DNA of 64,000 bases from a virus (lineage: Duplodnaviria; Caudoviricetes), in the IMG/VR virus record IMGVR_UViG_3300021514_000002, positions 96,001-160,000 of that record. One strand, written 5' to 3'. Position numbers and translations under genes: made by a program. Shown piece after piece: positions 10,085 through 16,465 of the stretch. The notes beneath the pieces are model-generated. The model did not search any database. It was given only the letters and a program-made list of their open reading frames with translations, and had not been told where the DNA came from. Every line of letters starts with the position of its first letter. The first letter of the stretch is position 1.

Positions 10085-10632
10085 TCATTCTTCTTCCATT
10101 AATAGTTTCAGGTTTTTTAGCGTTCTTTCTTCAAGTTGGCGAATTCGTTCCATAGAAACCCCATACTTTTCAGAAAGATCTTTTAATGTGAGGGGAATAT
10201 CTATGAATTTCCGCCAGTGATTTGCATTTTTCGTAAATTGAAAAATAGCTTACGTTGTGGTTTTGTAGTAGCAACTTTTGATATCTTCCAATTATTCACA
10301 ACATATTCATATATTTCAGCCTTAATATAATGGACGGCATATGAAGTCAATTTTCCTTTATCTGGCTCAAACCGATGAACAGCTTTCATTAAACCAACGT
10401 TACCTTCTTGGATTAAATCTTCCAATGGTAAACCATAGTTTACGTATTTTTTAGCAATATAGACGACAAATCGTAAATGCGCTAAGACCATTTTCTGTGC
10501 TGCATCTAAGTCGTCATTATATATAAGACGATTCGCAAGTTCAACTTCTTCTTCCCTTGTCAACATAGGAATTTGTCCCAATGACGCCAAATAAGAACTT
10601 AAATTTCCTGTCGTGGTTAATCCTGTATTCAT
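10085..10632 (-). pseudogene. rpoH: RpoH (sigma32)-derived gene: regions 1.2-2.4 plus RpoH box, then a region 4.2 HTH in the -1 frame; region 3/4.1 absent
   Basis: [23 protein letters not shown] and [16 protein letters not shown] precede TAG at 10203-10201. The -1 frame reads LTLKDLSEKYGVSMERIRQLEERTLKNLK, with TGA at 10087-10085. Confidence 0.8.
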
Positions 10633-11101: not shown

Positions 11102-11635
11102 ATGACTAAAAAGAAAGATATTAAATGGAAATACATGAAGTTAGACGGTGCATTAAACCGTAACTATAAAGTTTCAGATCAAGGCGACATCGTTGCTTCT
11201 ACAACAATGAAACCATTAACCCAGAGCGACATGGGTAAAAAATGTGCAAAGAATGGCACAGATTACAAGAGTGTAAGTATTGTAGGCCGTAAAAATGGAG
11301 TTCGAGTTCACCGTATCGTGTGTGAAACTTTCCGTGGTGCTCCAAAGGGCGATAGAACCCAAGTTGGCCATCTTGACGAACACAAAGATAACAACGCGTT
11401 ATCTAATCTAAAATGGATTTCGCCAACAGAACGCTCCCGCGCTTATTTCGCCAACAACACCCTACCACGTTACACAACCGCTGTTGTTGTCCGTACTAAA
11501 AAGATGATCAACAAAGGTTTAACAAACGATAAAATTGCCCAAAAAACAGGCATGAGCGATTCTAACGTATCTGCGATTAAATTAGGCATCATCCATTCAG
11601 AAGTTAAACCATATACATCAAACCAGTTCGGTTAA
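11102..11635 (+). CDS. HNH endonuclease-like protein with C-terminal HTH
   Basis: VHRIVCETF...VGHLDEHKDNNALSNLKW motif. Confidence 0.75.
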   Translation: MTKKKDIKWKYMKLDGALNRNYKVSDQGDIVASTTMKPLTQSDMGKKCAKNGTDYKSVSIVGRKNGVRVHRIVCETFRGAPKGDRTQVGHLDEHKDNNALSNLKWISPTERSRAYFANNTLPRYTTAVVVRTKKMINKGLTNDKIAQKTGMSDSNVSAIKLGIIHSEVKPYTSNQFG

Positions 11636-11965
11636 TATGTTAGCATCGAAAGAAGAATACAAGGATTTGTTAGAAGAAACTAAGGACAAGGATTTGTCCG
11701 CTTTGGATGATACGGTTAAAAATACTGTTTCCAATATCATTTCCCGCGCACGAGAAAGGCGCAGCGATGGCAAGGAAATTTCCGATCCTTTATTGAATAC
11801 ATTAATTGAACAGTTGAGTAAAACAGTTAGGAATCGTAATAACCTTGAACATTTTCTTGAAAGTATCGCATGGTATGAAGAATATACTAGAAATAGGTAA
11901 TTAAAAGCTTGCATTTTACAAATATTTAGGTTACAATGGTGTATATTTGATAATTAGGATATTTT

Positions 11966-12982
11966 ATGAAACTTTTAACACACATCGGACTCATCTTACT
12001 GTTACTATGTAATGTAGCAACTGCCGAAGAATTTTCAATTGGTATTAAAGAAGCTAAACCCCTTGCTTATCAGGAAAACGGACAATGGAAAGGTATTAGT
12101 GTTGATTTAATTCAAGAACTTTCCAAAGAAATGAATTTTACTTATAAGTTCGTTTCCGTTAATAACATTACATCTTTAATAGATGCATCATCTAATGGTG
12201 CTGTTGATATGTCAATCGCTGCAATATCATTAACCCCTGAACGCGAAGAAGTTATTGATTTCTCGCACAAATACTTTACCACATCCATTGGTATCCTATC
12301 GAATGTAAATGATTCTTGGATAGACACTATATTATGGGTAATATCAAGGGTTGCATTAATTTTAATCGGATTTATTATCTCACTTTATGTAGTAGGCTAT
12401 ATCATTGATAAGGTTGATGGTAATGCCAATATTAAATCGCCACATGATGGTGCATGGTGGGCATTAGTAACTTTTACTACAACAGGGTATGGTGATGTTG
12501 TTCCGAAGACGAGCGCAGGTAAAGTCCTTGCGTCCATTTGGATGATAGCCAGTTTATTTTTATTATCAGCGTTTACAGGTTACGTGGCATCGGTTTTAAC
12601 TGTTAAAAATTTAACTGATACGCCAATGACACTTTCCACTCTATATAACGCTAACGTAGTTGCCGTTAACGGCTCTACTGGCCAACAGCGACTAAATGCT
12701 CTTGGTATTAAACACATTACGGTACCTGATCTTGAAATGGGATTAGAATTATTTAAATCTGGCAAAGTAAATGCCGTAGTACATGATGATACTATGTTAA
12801 ATTATGCAGCAAAATCAATGGATAATGTTCTAGTATCGTCTATCGCTAATAGCGAAGAAGATTATGCAATTACATTACCACCAAATTCCAAGTTGACACG
12901 CCGTGTTAATTTAGGTATACTACGCGTTCTTGCTTCCCCTACGTGGAAAGCGATTCGTTCACAATATAACGTCCTACAATAG
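11966..12982 (+). CDS. GluR0-like ligand-gated potassium channel (SBP lobe-TM-pore-TM-SBP lobe)
   Basis: Signal peptide, SBP family 3 features (GISVDL, VDMSIAAISLTPERE..IDFS..Y), WWALVTFTTTGYGD K+ filter, and a second SBP lobe. Confidence 0.85.
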   Translation: MKLLTHIGLILLLLCNVATAEEFSIGIKEAKPLAYQENGQWKGISVDLIQELSKEMNFTYKFVSVNNITSLIDASSNGAVDMSIAAISLTPEREEVIDFSHKYFTTSIGILSNVNDSWIDTILWVISRVALILIGFIISLYVVGYIIDKVDGNANIKSPHDGAWWALVTFTTTGYGDVVPKTSAGKVLASIWMIASLFLLSAFTGYVASVLTVKNLTDTPMTLSTLYNANVVAVNGSTGQQRLNALGIKHITVPDLEMGLELFKSGKVNAVVHDDTMLNYAAKSMDNVLVSSIANSEEDYAITLPPNSKLTRRVNLGILRVLASPTWKAIRSQYNVLQ

Positions 12983-12992
12983 GAGATACACA

Positions 12993-14672
12993 ATGTTTAA
13001 GAAATTAATCACTACGTTTTTAACAGCGGCCATTGTAATTGGCTTTACTATGCCAATTATGGTTACCGACGCAGGCGCGAAAGGCTTTAGAAGTAGTAGC
13101 AGCTTTTCACGTTCAAGTTTTCGGTCATCAAGTTCCGCAAAAAGTTCTAGAAAGATGTTTTCATCATATAGATCAAAATCAAACAATTCATCAAAGAAAC
13201 GCTTTTCTACATCAAAAGCAAAATCAACTTCTTCTTCAAATAAGAAGTATGCCACCAATAAGCGCGTTTCCAGTAATAAATTTACAGGAAATAAACAGAC
13301 TTCTGGTTATAAAAAAGTAGGGGCTGGAAAACAAACCCGCCGAGCTAAATCAGCCTTACGATCACAACGTGCCAAGTTTAAGAAGCCTTCTTATAGTTCA
13401 ACAGGTAAAATATCATCTGCCAAATATAAGCAATCTTATGGTAACCGTGCGTCATATCGTCGCGCTTCAAGCTATGATCGTAGCACCTATCATACCCGCC
13501 GTAACCAATATTATGGAGGTTATAGTGCACCTAGATACGCGTATTATGGTTCACCGTCGTATGGTATGTGGGATACAATTTTCTTGTACAGTATGTTAAG
13601 TAGCATGAACAATAATAGTAACGCTTCACAATTCGCATATAATCATCAAAACGATGCTGACTATCGTCAATGGCGTCGTGAAGCTAATAAACAAGCGCAA
13701 GAAAATGCTGAACTTCGTGCACAACTTGCACAAATGGATGCAGGTGCTTCTAAATATAAAGGTAACCCAATCAATGCAGATTTCATCCCTACTGGGGTTG
13801 ATGCCGATGTTGCTATGTCGCAAGAAGTACTTGCTTCACAGAAACCAAACTTACGTGTTTGTGTAGGTAGTAAGAATGGTACATACTTCCGTGTAACGGC
13901 AGGCGTATTAATGCAGGGCATTAATTCTGTTAATATTATTCCTGTTATAACCACAGGTACTGGTGAAATTCTTGATAACGTTGCATCTGGTAAGTGTGAT
14001 GCGGGTTTTGTGCAAGCTGATGGTTACTGGAACTATGTTGAAACAAACCAAGTCACTTCATTACCATTTGAACGCGTTAGTTCACCTTATAAAGAAGCGG
14101 TTCATTTAATTTGTAACGCAAAAGGTCCAACTGCAATTAGCAAACTTTCTTCAAAGAATAAAGTTTGGTTCCCTGCTAAGTCAGGTGCTGCTGAAACATG
14201 GAAGAACTTCATTGGTGAAGACTCTGACTATGGAAAGATCCAAACTGTGTTAACAAACAAGTCTATGACTGTTGGTTCATATGAAGAAGCTATCATGAAA
14301 GTTGGCAATGATAAAAATTCTTGTGCAATGTATGTTGGTGCACCAGGCGCTTCTAAATTAGTACGTAATATCGATGCAGCGGCAAAGAAATCAAATCTCG
14401 TATTGATTGATATTAACGACAATGACCTAAATGATACTACCGATCCATCAGGTTCATCAGTTTATAAATTTGGTGACATTGATGCGTATAAGCAATTGAA
14501 CCGTCAAGCAAGTTGTTATGGTTGGTGTTCAGGTGATATCCAAAGTCTTTATGTTAATGCTGATTTCATTGTATCCAATAAGTGGAAGAAAGTTAACAGT
14601 ACTACATATCCATCATTAGCAGTTGACCTAATGGGTATGCAACCTGAAATTGAAACTGCAATTCGTTATTAA
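12993..14672 (+). CDS. Exported protein: Ser/Arg/Lys/Tyr-rich low-complexity region fused to a TAXI-type solute-binding domain
   Basis: SD AGGAG then MFKKLITT at 12993. C-terminal half has GSKNGTY, GTGEIL..VASGKCDAGFVQAD and YKEAVHLI. Confidence 0.65.
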   Translation: MFKKLITTFLTAAIVIGFTMPIMVTDAGAKGFRSSSSFSRSSFRSSSSAKSSRKMFSSYRSKSNNSSKKRFSTSKAKSTSSSNKKYATNKRVSSNKFTGNKQTSGYKKVGAGKQTRRAKSALRSQRAKFKKPSYSSTGKISSAKYKQSYGNRASYRRASSYDRSTYHTRRNQYYGGYSAPRYAYYGSPSYGMWDTIFLYSMLSSMNNNSNASQFAYNHQNDADYRQWRREANKQAQENAELRAQLAQMDAGASKYKGNPINADFIPTGVDADVAMSQEVLASQKPNLRVCVGSKNGTYFRVTAGVLMQGINSVNIIPVITTGTGEILDNVASGKCDAGFVQADGYWNYVETNQVTSLPFERVSSPYKEAVHLICNAKGPTAISKLSSKNKVWFPAKSGAAETWKNFIGEDSDYGKIQTVLTNKSMTVGSYEEAIMKVGNDKNSCAMYVGAPGASKLVRNIDAAAKKSNLVLIDINDNDLNDTTDPSGSSVYKFGDIDAYKQLNRQASCYGWCSGDIQSLYVNADFIVSNKWKKVNSTTYPSLAVDLMGMQPEIETAIRY

Positions 14673-14681
14673 GGAAATATA

Positions 14682-15350
14682 ATGTTATCATATTTGAAAA
14701 AGAAACTCGGCATGGAAAAGGAAGTTCCTGCCGCCGAACGGTTTTATTCACCACTAAGGATTGGTTTGCATAGTACTATTGATATGTCTACTGTTGATTG
14801 GTTAATGGCGCAAGAAGGATTGAACAAATCCATGAAGCTTCCCGTACCAACATTTACAATTCTTGCAATCGGTGAATCAGATGTTGATGGTGATACAATA
14901 TACAACATCTACATGATCGATCAAGCCGATGAAGAGTTTATATTACAATTATTTTGTGTAACAAAATCTGGTACAATGAATGTTGTTGAAGCCACTTTGT
15001 TTAAACAAGTTGTAAATATAGTTCCATTGACTGAAAGTGATTGGTCTGAAAACATGGATGCAATTGGATTCAATACTATCGAATTGGATGACAATACATA
15101 CAATAGATTGTGGTCAGAAGATTATGATGGTAAAATTGATTTAATTGACTTTAATGAGAAAGTTGTTGAATCTGATAAGATAACAAGTTATACTAACCAC
15201 TACATGCTGTACAGCAGAAAGTTCATTGGTATTACTGGTACAGAAGAAACAGAAATGCTGCTCGCTGGTGTTGAAGAAACAGACGAAACAGCTGAAATCA
15301 CGATGATGTTGGGACTACCTGTTCCATTGTCAAATATTAATATACAATAA
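14682..15350 (+). CDS. DUF2491 (YjfK)-like protein
   Basis: Acidic 222-aa protein with ..Y.RLW.. and MLY.R motifs and a terminal I..MLG..V; adjacent to a PspA-like gene. Confidence 0.55.
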   Translation: MLSYLKKKLGMEKEVPAAERFYSPLRIGLHSTIDMSTVDWLMAQEGLNKSMKLPVPTFTILAIGESDVDGDTIYNIYMIDQADEEFILQLFCVTKSGTMNVVEATLFKQVVNIVPLTESDWSENMDAIGFNTIELDDNTYNRLWSEDYDGKIDLIDFNEKVVESDKITSYTNHYMLYSRKFIGITGTEETEMLLAGVEETDETAEITMMLGLPVPLSNINIQ

Positions 15351-15362
15351 AGGATACAAATT

Positions 15363-16118
15363 ATGTTAGGTAAATTTTTTAAACATTACGGTAAAAGTAA
15401 GATCCAACAGGGAATCCAATCATTAAATGATGCTATTGTATCATTTGATCCAGAAGGCGCTACAAGCGCAGCCATTGCTGAAATGGAAGAAAATTTTGAT
15501 TCTATTAATAAAGAATTTTCTAAAGCTAAACAAGAATGGGCACGTGAACAGAAAGAAGCAGATGAAATTGAAAAGCTTCGTGACCAACGCATGGCTGCAG
15601 CAGAACATATTTCTGGTCAATTAGAAGCCAGTCCAGACAATGCACAATTAGATGCTGCATTGACGCAATTGCTTGATTCGCTGGAAGAAATGGCCGACGA
15701 TATTACGCGCGAAGTTGAAGAAGCTGTTGACGCTAAAGAAGTTATGGATGAACTGGATTTAACTGTTAAGATGTATGCTGATAAGTTGAAGTCTGCACGT
15801 TCTGATATGAAGAAAGCAGCTAATTCAATGAAGAAAGCTCAACGTCAAGAAGAACGCGCTGAAGAAAAAGCCGCGCGTGCTGCACAACAAGCAGGTATTA
15901 CAAGTTCTGCTAATGGTTTATCATCCGCACTTGAATCTATGAACCGTCAAGCACAAGAAGCACAAGCCAATGCCGATGCCGCAAAACGCAAGGCTCAACT
16001 TTTAGGTAAGTCAGAAGTTGAAGAAAACGATGCTATTGCCGCAGCCATGGCCGCTGTTTCAGGCGAAGCACCAAAGCCAACGTCTGCAAAAGATCGTCTT
16101 GCTGCGCTTCGTAAGTAA
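15363..16118 (+). CDS. PspA/IM30-like coiled-coil protein
   Basis: Long Ala/Glu/Gln-rich heptad helix, 251 aa, terminal DRLAALRK. Confidence 0.6.
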   Translation: MLGKFFKHYGKSKIQQGIQSLNDAIVSFDPEGATSAAIAEMEENFDSINKEFSKAKQEWAREQKEADEIEKLRDQRMAAAEHISGQLEASPDNAQLDAALTQLLDSLEEMADDITREVEEAVDAKEVMDELDLTVKMYADKLKSARSDMKKAANSMKKAQRQEERAEEKAARAAQQAGITSSANGLSSALESMNRQAQEAQANADAAKRKAQLLGKSEVEENDAIAAAMAAVSGEAPKPTSAKDRLAALRK

Positions 16119-16130
16119 GTAAAAACTGAT

Positions 16131-16160
16131 AAAAGGGAGGCACTATGCCTCCCTTTTTAT
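16131..16160 (+). terminator. Rho-independent terminator ending the channel-PspA unit
   Basis: aaaagggaggca-cta-tgcctccctttttat. Confidence 0.85.
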
Positions 16161-16174
16161 TTCGAGGAAATAGA

Positions 16175-16465
16175 ATGGAACACTTTAATAAATTATCACC
16201 CAGTGAAGCAGAACGTCTTGCTATATTGCTTGAAGAAATGGGCGAAGCACAACAGGCCATTGGAAAGATATTACGCCATGGTTATGAAAGCACACATCCT
16301 GATGGTGGCGAAACCAATCGTGAAATGCTTGAAAGAGAATTAGGCGATGTTCACTACGCCGTTGTTAATCTTTATGTATGTAATGACATAAACGAAGTCG
16401 CTGTGCATGAAGCAGCTCGGGAAAAATCTGAAAACATAACGAAATATTTACATCACAATGAATAA
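16175..16465 (+). CDS. MazG-like nucleotide pyrophosphohydrolase
   Basis: LLEEMGEAQQAIGK...LERELGDV (EExxE...ExxD). SD GAGG upstream of ATG 16175. Confidence 0.7.
   Translation: MEHFNKLSPSEAERLAILLEEMGEAQQAIGKILRHGYESTHPDGGETNREMLERELGDVHYAVVNLYVCNDINEVAVHEAAREKSENITKYLHHNE

What the first reader, a model, noticed from the sequence alone, without database searches (positions are those of the whole stretch)
11966..16160. Phage-borne envelope/ion module: ligand-gated K+ channel, TAXI fusion, DUF2491-like and PspA-like genes
Seen: four tightly packed co-directional genes (9-12 nt gaps) follow a promoter (TTGCAT-17-TACAAT, about 11909-11937) and end at one terminator. Known: PspA/IM30 (ESCRT-III relatives) protects the inner membrane, and bacterial yjfJ-yjfK-type loci link PspA with DUF2491 and sometimes ion channels. 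Inference: a complete membrane-stress/K+ homeostasis unit that could keep infected cells polarised and counter membrane-disrupting abortive defences or superinfection. I know of no characterised phage system with this composition.
Basis: partly seen in the sequence, partly recalled or inferred. Interest (0 to 1): 0.75.

Follow-up and report, generated by a model that had tools for sequence, protein, structure and literature searches.

The report
Jumbo-phage potassium-channel and PspA-like cassette
A 363-kb hydrothermal-vent phage carries a four-gene unit (an amino-acid-gated potassium channel, a secreted sensor-like binding protein, a YjfK-like protein and a distant relative of the membrane-repair protein PspA) that is also an operon in some bacteria; it probably protects the infected cell's inner membrane and ion balance, but no function has been tested.

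Summary
Four co-directional genes (11966-16118, gaps of 10, 9 and 12 nt, each with a Shine-Dalgarno site) lie between a sigma70-like promoter and a strong terminator.

- **g1:** a GluR0-type K+ channel with a TTGYGD filter and a periplasmic amino-acid-binding clamshell.
- **g2:** a secreted protein with a +40-charged Ser/Lys/Arg-rich linker, a conserved module of no known family, and an orphan TAXI binding domain.
- **g3:** DUF2491 (YjfK-like).
- **g4:** misses Pfam PspA_IM30. Its predicted helix layout, Foldseek ranking and a profile-profile match (94%, E 1e-7, controls far lower) support a divergent PspA/IM30 relative.

The four genes stay together in five other large phage contigs (42-61% g2 identity, different flanks). 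The g2-g3-g4 trio is an operon in Gammaproteobacteria and Desulfomonilaceae, often with a GluR0-type channel placed last. Trees suggest that phages and bacteria recruited the channel separately. One bacterium fuses the g2 module, a membrane helix and DUF2491.

Function is inferred only. I read it as a new variant of the known PspA/DUF2491/K+-channel operon theme, now also reported in general terms for huge phages. The scan had noted this same stretch before, but not on other DNA.

The parts
11909..11937 (+). sigma70-like promoter TTGCAT-17-TACAAT upstream of g1
   Evidence: Read directly. It matches 8 of 12 consensus positions, below the threshold of the scan. A comparable pair is kept at the same place in related phage contigs L003 and L057.
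11966..12982 (+). g1: GluR0-type ligand-gated K+ channel. Layout: signal peptide 1-25, S1 lobe, M1 117-150, pore helix with TTGYGD filter, M2 184-213, S2 lobe; no later membrane segment.
   Evidence: Pfam SBP_bac_3 8.9e-23, Ion_trans_2 1e-13, Lig_chan-Glu_bd and Lig_chan. PDB sequence hits to the Nostoc GluR0 core 2pyy (2.4e-16) and Synechocystis Slr1257; the Arg of 'ISLTPEREEVIDFS' and the Asp of 'AVVHDD' align to the 2pyy motifs. Hydropathy.
12993..14672 (+). g2: secreted fusion protein. Layout: signal peptide with an A-x-A site (about 1-29), Ser/Lys/Arg/Tyr-rich basic linker 30-190, conserved module 190-280 of no known family, TAXI-type solute-binding domain 285-559.
   Evidence: 87 homologue clusters, some with PF16868. 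Profile hit to TAXI structures 1us4/8u79 at about 6e-5. In the AF2 model, 285-559 is confident; the top seven Foldseek hits are TAXI proteins (6.6e-12 to 6.6e-10). Linker composition: 23 K, 18 R, 1 D, 0 E, 43 S, pI 11.2. Four invariant Cys lie in the TAXI part.
14682..15350 (+). g3: DUF2491 (YjfK-like) cytoplasmic protein with no hydrophobic segment
   Evidence: PF10679 3.8e-19, 69.1 bits, profile positions 8-209 of 210. 24% identity to E. coli YjfK over the full length, E 2e-10. Conserved Y140, R142, W144, E159, R179, E191. Hydropathy.
15363..16118 (+). g4: divergent PspA/IM30-like coiled-coil protein. Layout: N-terminal helix 2-28, near-invariant D29-P30, long hairpin 30-89 and 94-180, then a low-confidence C-terminal part.
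   Evidence: The family has 395 representatives. None of 77 members hits PF04012. AF2 model pLDDT 80. Eight of the top ten Foldseek PDB hits, including ranks 1-8, are Vipp1/PspA (E 6e-3 to 0.18). hhalign against a PspA+YjfJ alignment: 94%, E 1.1e-7, 218 collinear columns, against scores of 33 or less for reversed or block-shuffled controls. The nearest atlas clusters are auto-named PspA/IM30.
16133..16162 (+). intrinsic terminator (10-bp GC-rich hairpin plus U run), palindromic and so possibly bidirectional
   Evidence: -20.8 kcal/mol, z -4.9. The next gene (MazG-like) really starts at 16175, after the hairpin.

Best explanation
The region is a self-contained, horizontally mobile inner-membrane module that a lineage of T4-like jumbo phages shares with bacteria.

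**Shown.**
- g1 has every sequence hallmark of a GluR0-type K+ channel whose amino-acid-binding clamshell faces the periplasm.
- g2 carries a signal peptide, a polycationic linker, a conserved module of unknown family and an orphan TAXI binding domain.
- g3 is DUF2491.
- g4 is a remote PspA/IM30 relative.
- g2, g3 and g4 form a conserved operon core, and GluR0-type channels have joined it in phages and in bacteria.

**Inferred mechanism.**
1. The cassette is probably transcribed from its own sigma70-like promoter.
2. g2 is exported. Its basic linker and aromatic-rich module hold it at the outer face of the inner membrane, and its TAXI domain reads a small carboxylate or amino acid.
3. DUF2491 works with the g2 module from the cytoplasmic side. 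One bacterium joins the two through a single membrane helix.
4. The PspA-like protein binds stressed or leaky membrane through its N-terminal helix and polymerises there, as PspA and Vipp1 do.
5. The channel opens on periplasmic ligand binding and pulls the membrane potential towards the K+ equilibrium potential. This limits both collapse and K+ loss.

The net effect would be to keep the host membrane energised and sealed through a long jumbo-phage infection, against damage from phage entry, superinfection, pore-forming defence effectors or early holin action.
For: **Identity of the parts:** (g1; g2; g3; g4).

**Linkage in phages.**
- The same four genes in the same order occur in phage-like contigs L003, L005, L055, L056 and L057. 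g2 identity is 42-61%, and the flanking genes differ (T4 Rnl1 in L055; NAD-dependent DNA ligase beside the cassette in L056).

**Linkage in bacteria.**
- The order g2-g3-g4-channel is found in ten MAG loci annotated Pseudomonadales, Azotimanducaceae, Azophilus or Gammaproteobacteria.
- The trio alone is found in Thiosymbion and Desulfomonilaceae. Flanks are unrelated housekeeping genes.
- In a search seeded only with the g4 profile, DUF2491 is adjacent in 6 of 9 loci, and a g2-like gene in 5.

**Fusion.** L070:5922-7508 encodes signal peptide, g2 module, one membrane helix followed by RKRSS, and DUF2491, all in one frame. DUF350 and a g4-like gene follow.

**Channel recruitment.** Phage channels and operon-linked bacterial channels are separate clades among stand-alone GluR0-like channels. 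The AU test rejects joining them (p 0.003). The gene order also differs.

**Orphan TAXI domain.** No TRAP membrane subunit (PF06808) is found in the phage.

**From papers.**
- PspA is an ESCRT-III-like protein that contributes to membrane integrity and remodelling (background text of the preprint).
- GluR0 conducts K+ and buffers cell volume after KCl shock (PMC13099474).
- Phage landing compromises membrane integrity and membrane potential (10.1101/2023.06.05.543643).
- yjfJ-type pspA operons hold DUF2491 and a K+ channel (PMC11237479).
Against: - There are no expression data and no phenotype of any kind.
- g4 fails the Pfam PspA_IM30 model. A long helical hairpin is a common fold: in the VIA-align search, YscO scores Z 11 against Vipp1 at 9.1 and PspA at 8.6.
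- hhalign against PspA-only or YjfJ-only subsets scores much lower.
- Sec export of a linker with net charge +40 directly after the signal peptide is unusual, so g2's topology is inferred, not shown.
- The ligands of g1 and g2 are unknown.
- The phage lacks the YjfI-like chaperone, DUF350, DUF1190 and ATP-grasp partners of the described yjfJ operons, so analogy with them is limited.
- The channel could equally depolarise the cell.
Confidence: 0.5

Rival explanations
1. The cassette is a superinfection or lysis-timing sensor. Periplasmic g2 detects material from secondary phages, such as DNA or internal proteins mis-delivered to the periplasm, through its polycationic linker or TAXI pocket. The channel and the PspA-like protein then change the membrane potential to block further genome entry or to delay holin triggering, in the manner of T4 lysis inhibition.
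For: - The host phage lineage is T4-like: its relatives carry T4 Rnl1 and T4_Y16D domains.
- g2 has a signal peptide and a +40 linker that would bind polyanions.
- Phage landing lowers membrane potential and impedes the entry of co-infecting phages (10.1101/2023.06.05.543643).
- Holin triggering depends on membrane potential (established knowledge).
Against: - The same trio or quartet sits in bacterial chromosomes between housekeeping genes. There, a lysis-timing role makes no sense without a phage.
- No holin, antiholin or RI-like gene was identified next to the cassette.
- Nucleic-acid binding by g2 is pure inference.
Confidence: 0.2
2. The cassette is an ordinary auxiliary metabolic or osmotic module. 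The channel supplies K+ (with glutamate as counter-ion) for a large replication programme. The TAXI protein scavenges a carboxylate by docking on a host TRAP transporter. DUF2491 and the coiled-coil protein are accessory.
For: - GluR0 supports K+ uptake in a K+-uptake-deficient E. coli and acts in the response to KCl shock (PMC13099474).
- Among solved structures, the closest matches to the g2 domain include the glutamate-binding TAXI transport proteins VcGluP and T. thermophilus 1us4.
- Huge phages carry many transport genes.
Against: - No TRAP membrane subunit is in the phage.
- No TRAP membrane gene was seen among the neighbours called on the phage contigs or scanned in two bacterial loci.
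- The TAXI domain is fused to a long non-transport N-terminal region that can instead be fused to DUF2491.
- The constant partners are DUF2491 and a PspA-like protein, which are not transport components.
Confidence: 0.15
3. The trio is primarily a bacterial anti-phage or abortive-infection module. It would sense envelope breach and then change ion flux. Jumbo phages would have captured it to fight competing phages or to act as a decoy for the host copy.
For: - In Candidatus Thiosymbion the trio lies in a variable region with SEFIR/TIR, a nucleotidyltransferase pair and DarT-Macro (DarTG-like) genes.
- The Thiosymbion copy nests inside the phage clade, which shows recent mobility.
- The family is rare and patchy: 8 of 401 sampled Pseudomonadota genomes.
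Against: - None of the four proteins gives a meaningful PADLOC hit; only coiled-coil noise appears.
- In two loci scanned in full, a Candidatus Azotimanducaceae MAG (L013) and a Desulfomonilaceae MAG (L019), the operon is flanked by housekeeping genes, not defence genes.
Confidence: 0.1

Closest known systems
yjfJ-type pspA operons of Proteobacteria (E. coli yjfIJKLMC; 'third group' of Ravi et al. 2024, PMC11237479)
   Same: - A PspA-family protein is encoded next to DUF2491 (YjfK), together with a K+ channel, in one operon.
- Some g4-family genes also sit beside DUF350/YjfL.
   Different: - There is no YjfI (CesT/Tir-like) partner, no ATP-grasp YjfC and no DUF1190. DUF350 is absent from the phage.
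- The channel senses a ligand outside the cell (GluR0 type) rather than inside.
- A g2 protein (basic linker, new module, TAXI domain) is present that those operons are not reported to have.
- The PspA-like protein is too divergent for PF04012.
PspA / Vipp1 (IM30), bacterial ESCRT-III-like membrane-remodelling proteins
   Same: - The predicted order of helices is the same: N-terminal helix, then a long alpha1/alpha2-3 hairpin, then shorter C-terminal helices.
- A D-P motif lies at the alpha0/alpha1 junction and aligns with PspA's E-D-P.
- The full-length profile-profile alignment is collinear.
   Different: - No Pfam hit for g4 or for any of the 76 relatives scanned with it.
- Bona fide PspA genes lie elsewhere in three of the four operon-carrying bacterial genomes searched; the fourth gave only sub-threshold hits.
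- The C-terminal third is poorly modelled.
- Oligomerisation and lipid binding are untested.
GluR0 (Synechocystis Slr1257; Nostoc punctiforme GluR0)
   Same: - The layout is S1 lobe, M1, pore loop, M2, S2 lobe, with no further membrane segment.
- It has a K+ selectivity filter.
- The conserved Arg and Asp of the alpha-amino-acid site are kept.
   Different: - It is encoded by a phage and sits in an operon with a PspA-like module.
- Sequence identity to solved cores is low.
- The ligand is unknown.
- The phage clade is distinct from the bacterial operon-linked clade.
TAXI-family TRAP solute-binding proteins (VcGluP 8s4j/9ibo; T. thermophilus 1us4/8u79)
   Same: The C-terminal 275 residues of g2 adopt the TAXI fold, and these proteins are the top seven Foldseek hits. 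The profile also hits them by sequence.
   Different: - The domain is fused behind a 280-residue non-transport region.
- No TRAP membrane partner is found in the phage.
- Four invariant cysteines are present.
- Identity is only 13-17%, so ligand specificity cannot be transferred.
PspA-centred membrane modules of huge phages (Yuan and Chen, bioRxiv 10.64898/2026.10.24.761521)
   Same: Huge phages encode PspA next to membrane and transport genes. [quoted passage not shown]
   Different: - The main modules in that survey are Ca2+-ATPase/TerD/VWA and SPFH, mostly in gut phages.
- Its text mentions no K+ channel, TAXI domain or DUF2491.
- I could not tell whether the divergent g4 family was counted there.

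Membership tests
PspA/IM30 (PF04012) | Match to the Pfam PspA_IM30 model at or above its gathering score | tested here: not met
   - No hit at E up to 10 for g4.
- None of 77 family members hits it at E 0.01.
- A genome search with PF04012 finds other genes, not the g4 homologues.
PspA/IM30 (PF04012) | Helix order alpha0 to alpha5, with a long alpha1/alpha2-3 hairpin | tested here: met
   - The AF2 model has helices 2-28, 30-89 and 94-180, then short helices.
- Foldseek ranks Vipp1/PspA first (ranks 1-8), aligned over 200-247 columns.
- The hairpin alone is a common fold.
PspA/IM30 (PF04012) | Detectable sequence homology to PspA/YjfJ profiles | tested here: inconclusive
   - hhalign gives 94% probability, E 1.1e-7 and 218 columns, against control scores of 33 or less.
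- Subsets and single sequences are not significant.
- The PDB profile search reaches only E 0.13-0.22 for Vipp1/PspA.
PspA/IM30 (PF04012) | Membrane binding and assembly into rings or rods | not testable with these tools
   This needs purified protein, liposomes and electron microscopy.
GluR0-type prokaryotic glutamate-receptor K+ channel | A periplasmic-binding-protein fold split by a two-helix pore domain, with no third membrane segment | tested here: met
   - SBP_bac_3 spans residues 25-334, with Ion_trans_2 at 137-212.
- Hydrophobic segments lie only at 1-25, 117-150 and 184-213.
GluR0-type prokaryotic glutamate-receptor K+ channel | K+ selectivity filter T-x-G-Y-G-D | tested here: met
   The sequence reads TFTTTGYGD.
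GluR0-type prokaryotic glutamate-receptor K+ channel | Conserved Arg (alpha-carboxylate) and Asp (alpha-amino) of the ligand site | tested here: met
   'TPEREEVIDFS' and 'AVVHDD' align with the corresponding motifs of the Nostoc GluR0 core 2pyy. The roles of these residues come from established knowledge of the family.
GluR0-type prokaryotic glutamate-receptor K+ channel | Glutamate-gated K+ conductance | not testable with these tools
   This needs electrophysiology or K+-uptake complementation.
TAXI family TRAP solute-binding protein (PF16868) | TAXI fold and sequence family | tested here: met
   - Homologues carry PF16868.
- The profile hits 1us4/8u79 at about 6e-5.
- The top seven Foldseek hits are TAXI proteins, E 6.6e-12 to 6.6e-10.
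- The phage protein alone gives no Pfam hit.
TAXI family TRAP solute-binding protein (PF16868) | A cognate TRAP membrane component (DctQM type) encoded alongside | tested here: not met
   - PF06808 is not found in the 363-kb phage.
- No such gene appears among the neighbours called on the phage and Thiosymbion contigs.
- None is among the ORFs scanned around two bacterial loci.
DUF2491 (YjfK family, PF10679) | Full-length match above the gathering score | tested here: met
   - 69.1 bits against a cut-off of 25, covering profile positions 8-209 of 210.
- BLASTP to E. coli YjfK gives E 2e-10 over the full length.
yjfJ-type pspA operon (Ravi et al. 2024, third group) | CesT/Tir-like YjfI and PspA dyad, with ATP-grasp ligase, DUF350 and DUF1190 | tested here: not met
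   - The phage operon has four ORFs only, and all are assigned.
- DUF350 is absent from the phage genome.
- g2 shows no similarity to YjfM/DUF1190.
- YjfI and YjfC were not sought in the phage genome by profile.

The most novel reading that the evidence does not exclude
The cassette is a two-sided leak detector and repair unit. K+ and glutamate are the main cytoplasmic ions. When the inner membrane is breached, they escape into the periplasm.

1. The two periplasmic clamshells read the escaped solute. These are the GluR0 ligand-binding core and the orphan TAXI domain; solved glutamate-binding proteins are among the closest structural matches of the TAXI domain.
2. The channel then clamps the membrane potential at the K+ equilibrium potential.
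3. The g2 module signals across the membrane to DUF2491, which loads the PspA-like polymer onto the lesion.

Separate recruitment of GluR0-type channels to the same trio in phages and in bacteria would then reflect selection for this coupling. Jumbo phages would use the unit to survive pore-forming abortive-infection effectors or superinfection.
Probability: 0.15. Interest if true: 0.85.

Novelty: new variant of a known kind. Interest (0 to 1): 0.6.

Why it matters
**What would be new if the inferred function holds.**
- It would be the first phage-borne unit to combine a ligand-gated K+ channel with an ESCRT-III-like membrane-repair protein.
- It would show that large phages manage the electrical and mechanical state of the host membrane, not only its metabolism.
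- It would give a compact, transferable four-gene system in which to study three uncharacterised pieces that also occur in bacteria: DUF2491, the g2 N-terminal module and a PF04012-invisible branch of PspA-like proteins.
- It would suggest a physiological job for prokaryotic glutamate-receptor channels beyond osmotic shock.

**Testable leads found here.**
- The apparent double recruitment of GluR0-type channels to the trio.
- The natural fusion of the g2 module, a membrane helix and DUF2491.

**If the function proves ordinary.** If the cassette only supplies K+ or helps osmotic adaptation, it is one more auxiliary gene set of jumbo phages.

Tried and rejected
- **Deposited phages.** Megablast of the region against deposited phages found no match. 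tblastn of g1 and g2 gave only partial, distant hits: pore loops in Listeria phage fragments, and TAXI-like genes in rhizobial and EBPR phages.
- **IMG/VR.** The scan with the g2 profile found no further relative.
- **Genome scan with the g4 alignment.** I used g2 instead.
- **Family libraries.** NCBIfam and PHROGs gave no functional name for g2, g3 or g4. PADLOC gave only coiled-coil noise for g4.
- **hhalign against single sequences.** The g4 family against E. coli PspA or YjfJ alone was not significant, although the short aligned pieces fell at the D-P motif and the C-terminal motif.
- **VIA-align wide search with the g4 model.** Many helical hairpins scored alike, so it does not discriminate.
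- **g2 family against E. coli YjfM (DUF1190).** No similarity. The atlas search with g2 residues 110-280 gave no lead.
- **Complex prediction of g4 with g3.** No verdict: score 0.00, controls not run. This is evidence neither for nor against binding.
- **Sequencing runs.** No RNA holder is listed. The DNA holders are hydrothermal-vent metagenomes (two studies), with small shares in marine metagenomes. I did not lay reads.
- **Short contigs of distant g4 relatives.** Mostly uninformative.
- **The neighbouring sigma-factor gene.** I considered it as part of the unit and rejected that. It is on the other strand and is not adjacent in L055 or L056.

Full report
**Setting.** The window is bases 96001-160000 of a 363,531-bp IMG/VR virus record that CheckV rates complete. 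G+C content is about 35%. DNA runs holding the stretch are hydrothermal-vent metagenomes from two studies. Related contigs carry T4-type genes such as RNA ligase 1 and T4_Y16D. This fits earlier scan notes that call it a T4-like jumbo phage.

**The observation.** Four + strand ORFs fill 11966-16118.
- g1 is 11966-12982, g2 is 12993-14672, g3 is 14682-15350 and g4 is 15363-16118.
- g2's true start is the ATG after AGGAG, not the upstream TTG at 12930.
- The gaps are 10, 9 and 12 nt, and each downstream gene has a Shine-Dalgarno site.
- The promoter TTGCAT-17-TACAAT is exactly at 11909-11937. By itself it is weak evidence: it matches 8 of 12 positions, and promoter-like sites in the region are at chance level. 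However, related phages L003 and L057 keep a sigma70-like pair at the same position.
- After g4 comes a 10-bp GC-rich hairpin with a U run (-20.8 kcal/mol, z -4.9).
- The next gene, MazG-like, starts at 16175 behind the hairpin.

**g1.**
- Pfam finds an SBP_bac_3 fold interrupted by an Ion_trans_2 pore, together with both glutamate-receptor families.
- PDB sequence hits include the GluR0 cores of Nostoc (2pyy) and Synechocystis (Slr1257), and animal iGluRs.
- The filter reads TTGYGD.
- Hydrophobic segments are a signal peptide, M1 and M2 only.
- The Arg of the 'ER' motif and the Asp of 'HDD' align with the matching motifs of 2pyy.

I read this as a GluR0-type K+ channel with a periplasmic amino-acid-binding clamshell. 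The ligand is unknown. GluR0 of Synechocystis conducts K+ and buffers cell volume after KCl shock (PMC13099474).

**g2.** Alone it matches nothing in Pfam. It has 87 homologue clusters, some carrying PF16868, the TAXI family.
- *TAXI domain.* A family profile hits the TAXI structures 1us4 and 8u79. In the AF2 model, residues 285-559 are confident, and the top seven Foldseek matches are TAXI proteins.
- *N-terminal 280 residues.* There is a signal peptide ending in a conserved A-x-A site. Next comes a 161-residue linker with 41 Lys+Arg, 1 Asp, 0 Glu and 43 Ser (pI 11.2). Then follows a strongly conserved aromatic-rich module plus a short coiled coil. No known family matched this part.
- *Orphan status.* The phage has no TRAP membrane subunit, so the TAXI domain looks like a sensor rather than a transport component.

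**g3.** It is a full-length DUF2491 (69 bits). It shares 24% identity with E. coli YjfK and has no hydrophobic segment.

**g4.**

*Against simple membership:*
- No PF04012 hit for g4 or for any of the 76 relatives scanned with it.
- A PF04012 search of four operon-carrying bacterial genomes does not pick up the g4 homologues; it finds ordinary pspA genes elsewhere in three of them.

*For remote kinship:*
- The AF2 model (pLDDT 80) has an N-terminal helix, a near-invariant D-P, and a long hairpin at 30-89 and 94-180.
- Foldseek ranks Vipp1/PspA first to eighth, with full-length alignments.
- hhalign against a 21-sequence PspA+YjfJ alignment that I built from genomes gives 94%, E 1.1e-7 and 218 collinear columns. 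The D-P falls on PspA's E-D-P. Reversed or block-shuffled controls score 33 or less, against 56.8 for the real alignment.
- Language-model neighbours are auto-named PspA/IM30.

*Caveats:* a helical hairpin is a common fold, and sub-profiles score low.

I call g4 a divergent PspA/IM30-like protein, not a Pfam member.

**Linkage.**
- The four genes occur in the same order in five other phage-like contigs of 55-301 kb. g2 identity is 42-61%, and the flanks differ.
- In bacteria, ten gammaproteobacterial MAG loci have the order g2-g3-g4-channel.
- Thiosymbion and Desulfomonilaceae have the trio alone. Flanks are housekeeping genes.
- A search seeded only with the g4 profile found the family in 8 of 401 Pseudomonadota genomes. 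DUF2491 was adjacent in 6 of 9 loci, and a g2-like gene in 5.
- In locus L070, one 528-residue frame joins a signal peptide, the g2 module, a membrane helix followed by RKRSS, and DUF2491. DUF350 and a g4-like gene follow. This fusion argues two things. The g2 module and DUF2491 work together, and they sit on opposite sides of the membrane.

**History.**
- A concatenated g2/g3/g4 tree puts the phages with Thiosymbion (100/100). This clade is sister to the channel-bearing MAG clade (100/99).
- Thiosymbion nests beside phage L056. The AU test rejects phage monophyly (p 0.023; I chose the group after seeing the g4 tree).
- In a channel tree with 27 stand-alone GluR0-like genes, phage channels and operon-linked channels are separate clades. 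Joining them is rejected (AU p 0.003).
- Together with the different gene order, this suggests two recruitments of a GluR0-type channel to the same trio. Two caveats apply: the phage sequences have odd composition, and the tree search was the quick kind.

**Mechanism.** None of it is shown. My best reading is an inner-membrane guard, as follows.
- The periplasmic parts are the two clamshells and the basic, aromatic-rich g2 region at the membrane surface.
- The cytoplasmic parts are DUF2491 and the PspA-like polymer.
- The K+ channel would hold the membrane potential near the K+ equilibrium value when the membrane is stressed.

Phage landing itself damages membrane integrity and potential, and PspA-type proteins contribute to membrane integrity and remodelling. 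The rivals are a superinfection or lysis-timing sensor, a plain K+/solute supply module, and a captured defence module. The Thiosymbion copy lies among TIR and DarTG-like genes, but PADLOC finds nothing.

**Comparison and novelty.**
- Ravi et al. 2024 describe yjfJ-type pspA operons with DUF2491, DUF350, DUF1190, an ATP-grasp ligase and a K+ channel with intracellular sensing. The present unit shares the PspA/DUF2491/K+-channel theme. It lacks the other partners, uses an outward-sensing channel and adds g2.
- A preprint of October 2026 reports PspA modules in huge phages. One listed neighbour class, a two-transmembrane substrate-binding protein, may overlap g1. Its text names no K+ channel, TAXI or DUF2491.
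- I found no paper on GluR0-type channels in phages and none characterising DUF2491/YjfK.
- I therefore rate this a new variant of a known kind, of moderate to good interest.

Noticed in passing
L070:5922-7508 (bacterial genome G056, contig C14): A natural fusion in one 528-residue frame: signal peptide, the g2 N-terminal module, one membrane helix and DUF2491. DUF350 (7531-7956) and a g4-like gene (7934-8770) follow. It links the unknown g2 module to DUF2491 across the membrane.
   Followed up: partly
L002:8001-11254 (Candidatus Thiosymbion oneisti): The trio, without a channel, nests inside the phage clade next to L056. It lies in a variable region with SEFIR/TIR, a nucleotidyltransferase pair, NUDIX and DarT-Macro genes. 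This suggests phage-to-bacterium transfer or a phage remnant.
   Followed up: partly
window 10201-10632 (- strand): The sigma-factor gene upstream has only regions 1.2 and 2 (143 aa). Related phages L003 and L005 encode proteins of 285-287 aa with regions 2 and 4. The gene is therefore truncated or split here.
   Followed up: partly
window 16145-16465: The mechanical ORF of the MazG-like gene begins inside the terminator hairpin. The likely start is the ATG at 16175, behind a GAGGA site.
   Followed up: yes
window 11102-11635: An HNH_3 endonuclease gene sits directly upstream of the cassette here and in L003, L005 and L057, but not in L055 or L056. It may be a homing element that travels with, or marks, this insertion site.
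   Followed up: no
L079-L105 (sampled Pseudomonadota genomes): Full-length GluR0-type channels occur in roughly 28 of 401 sampled Pseudomonadota genomes. In the two sampled genomes that carry both (G106, G174), the channel lies on a different contig from the g4-family gene.
   Followed up: partly
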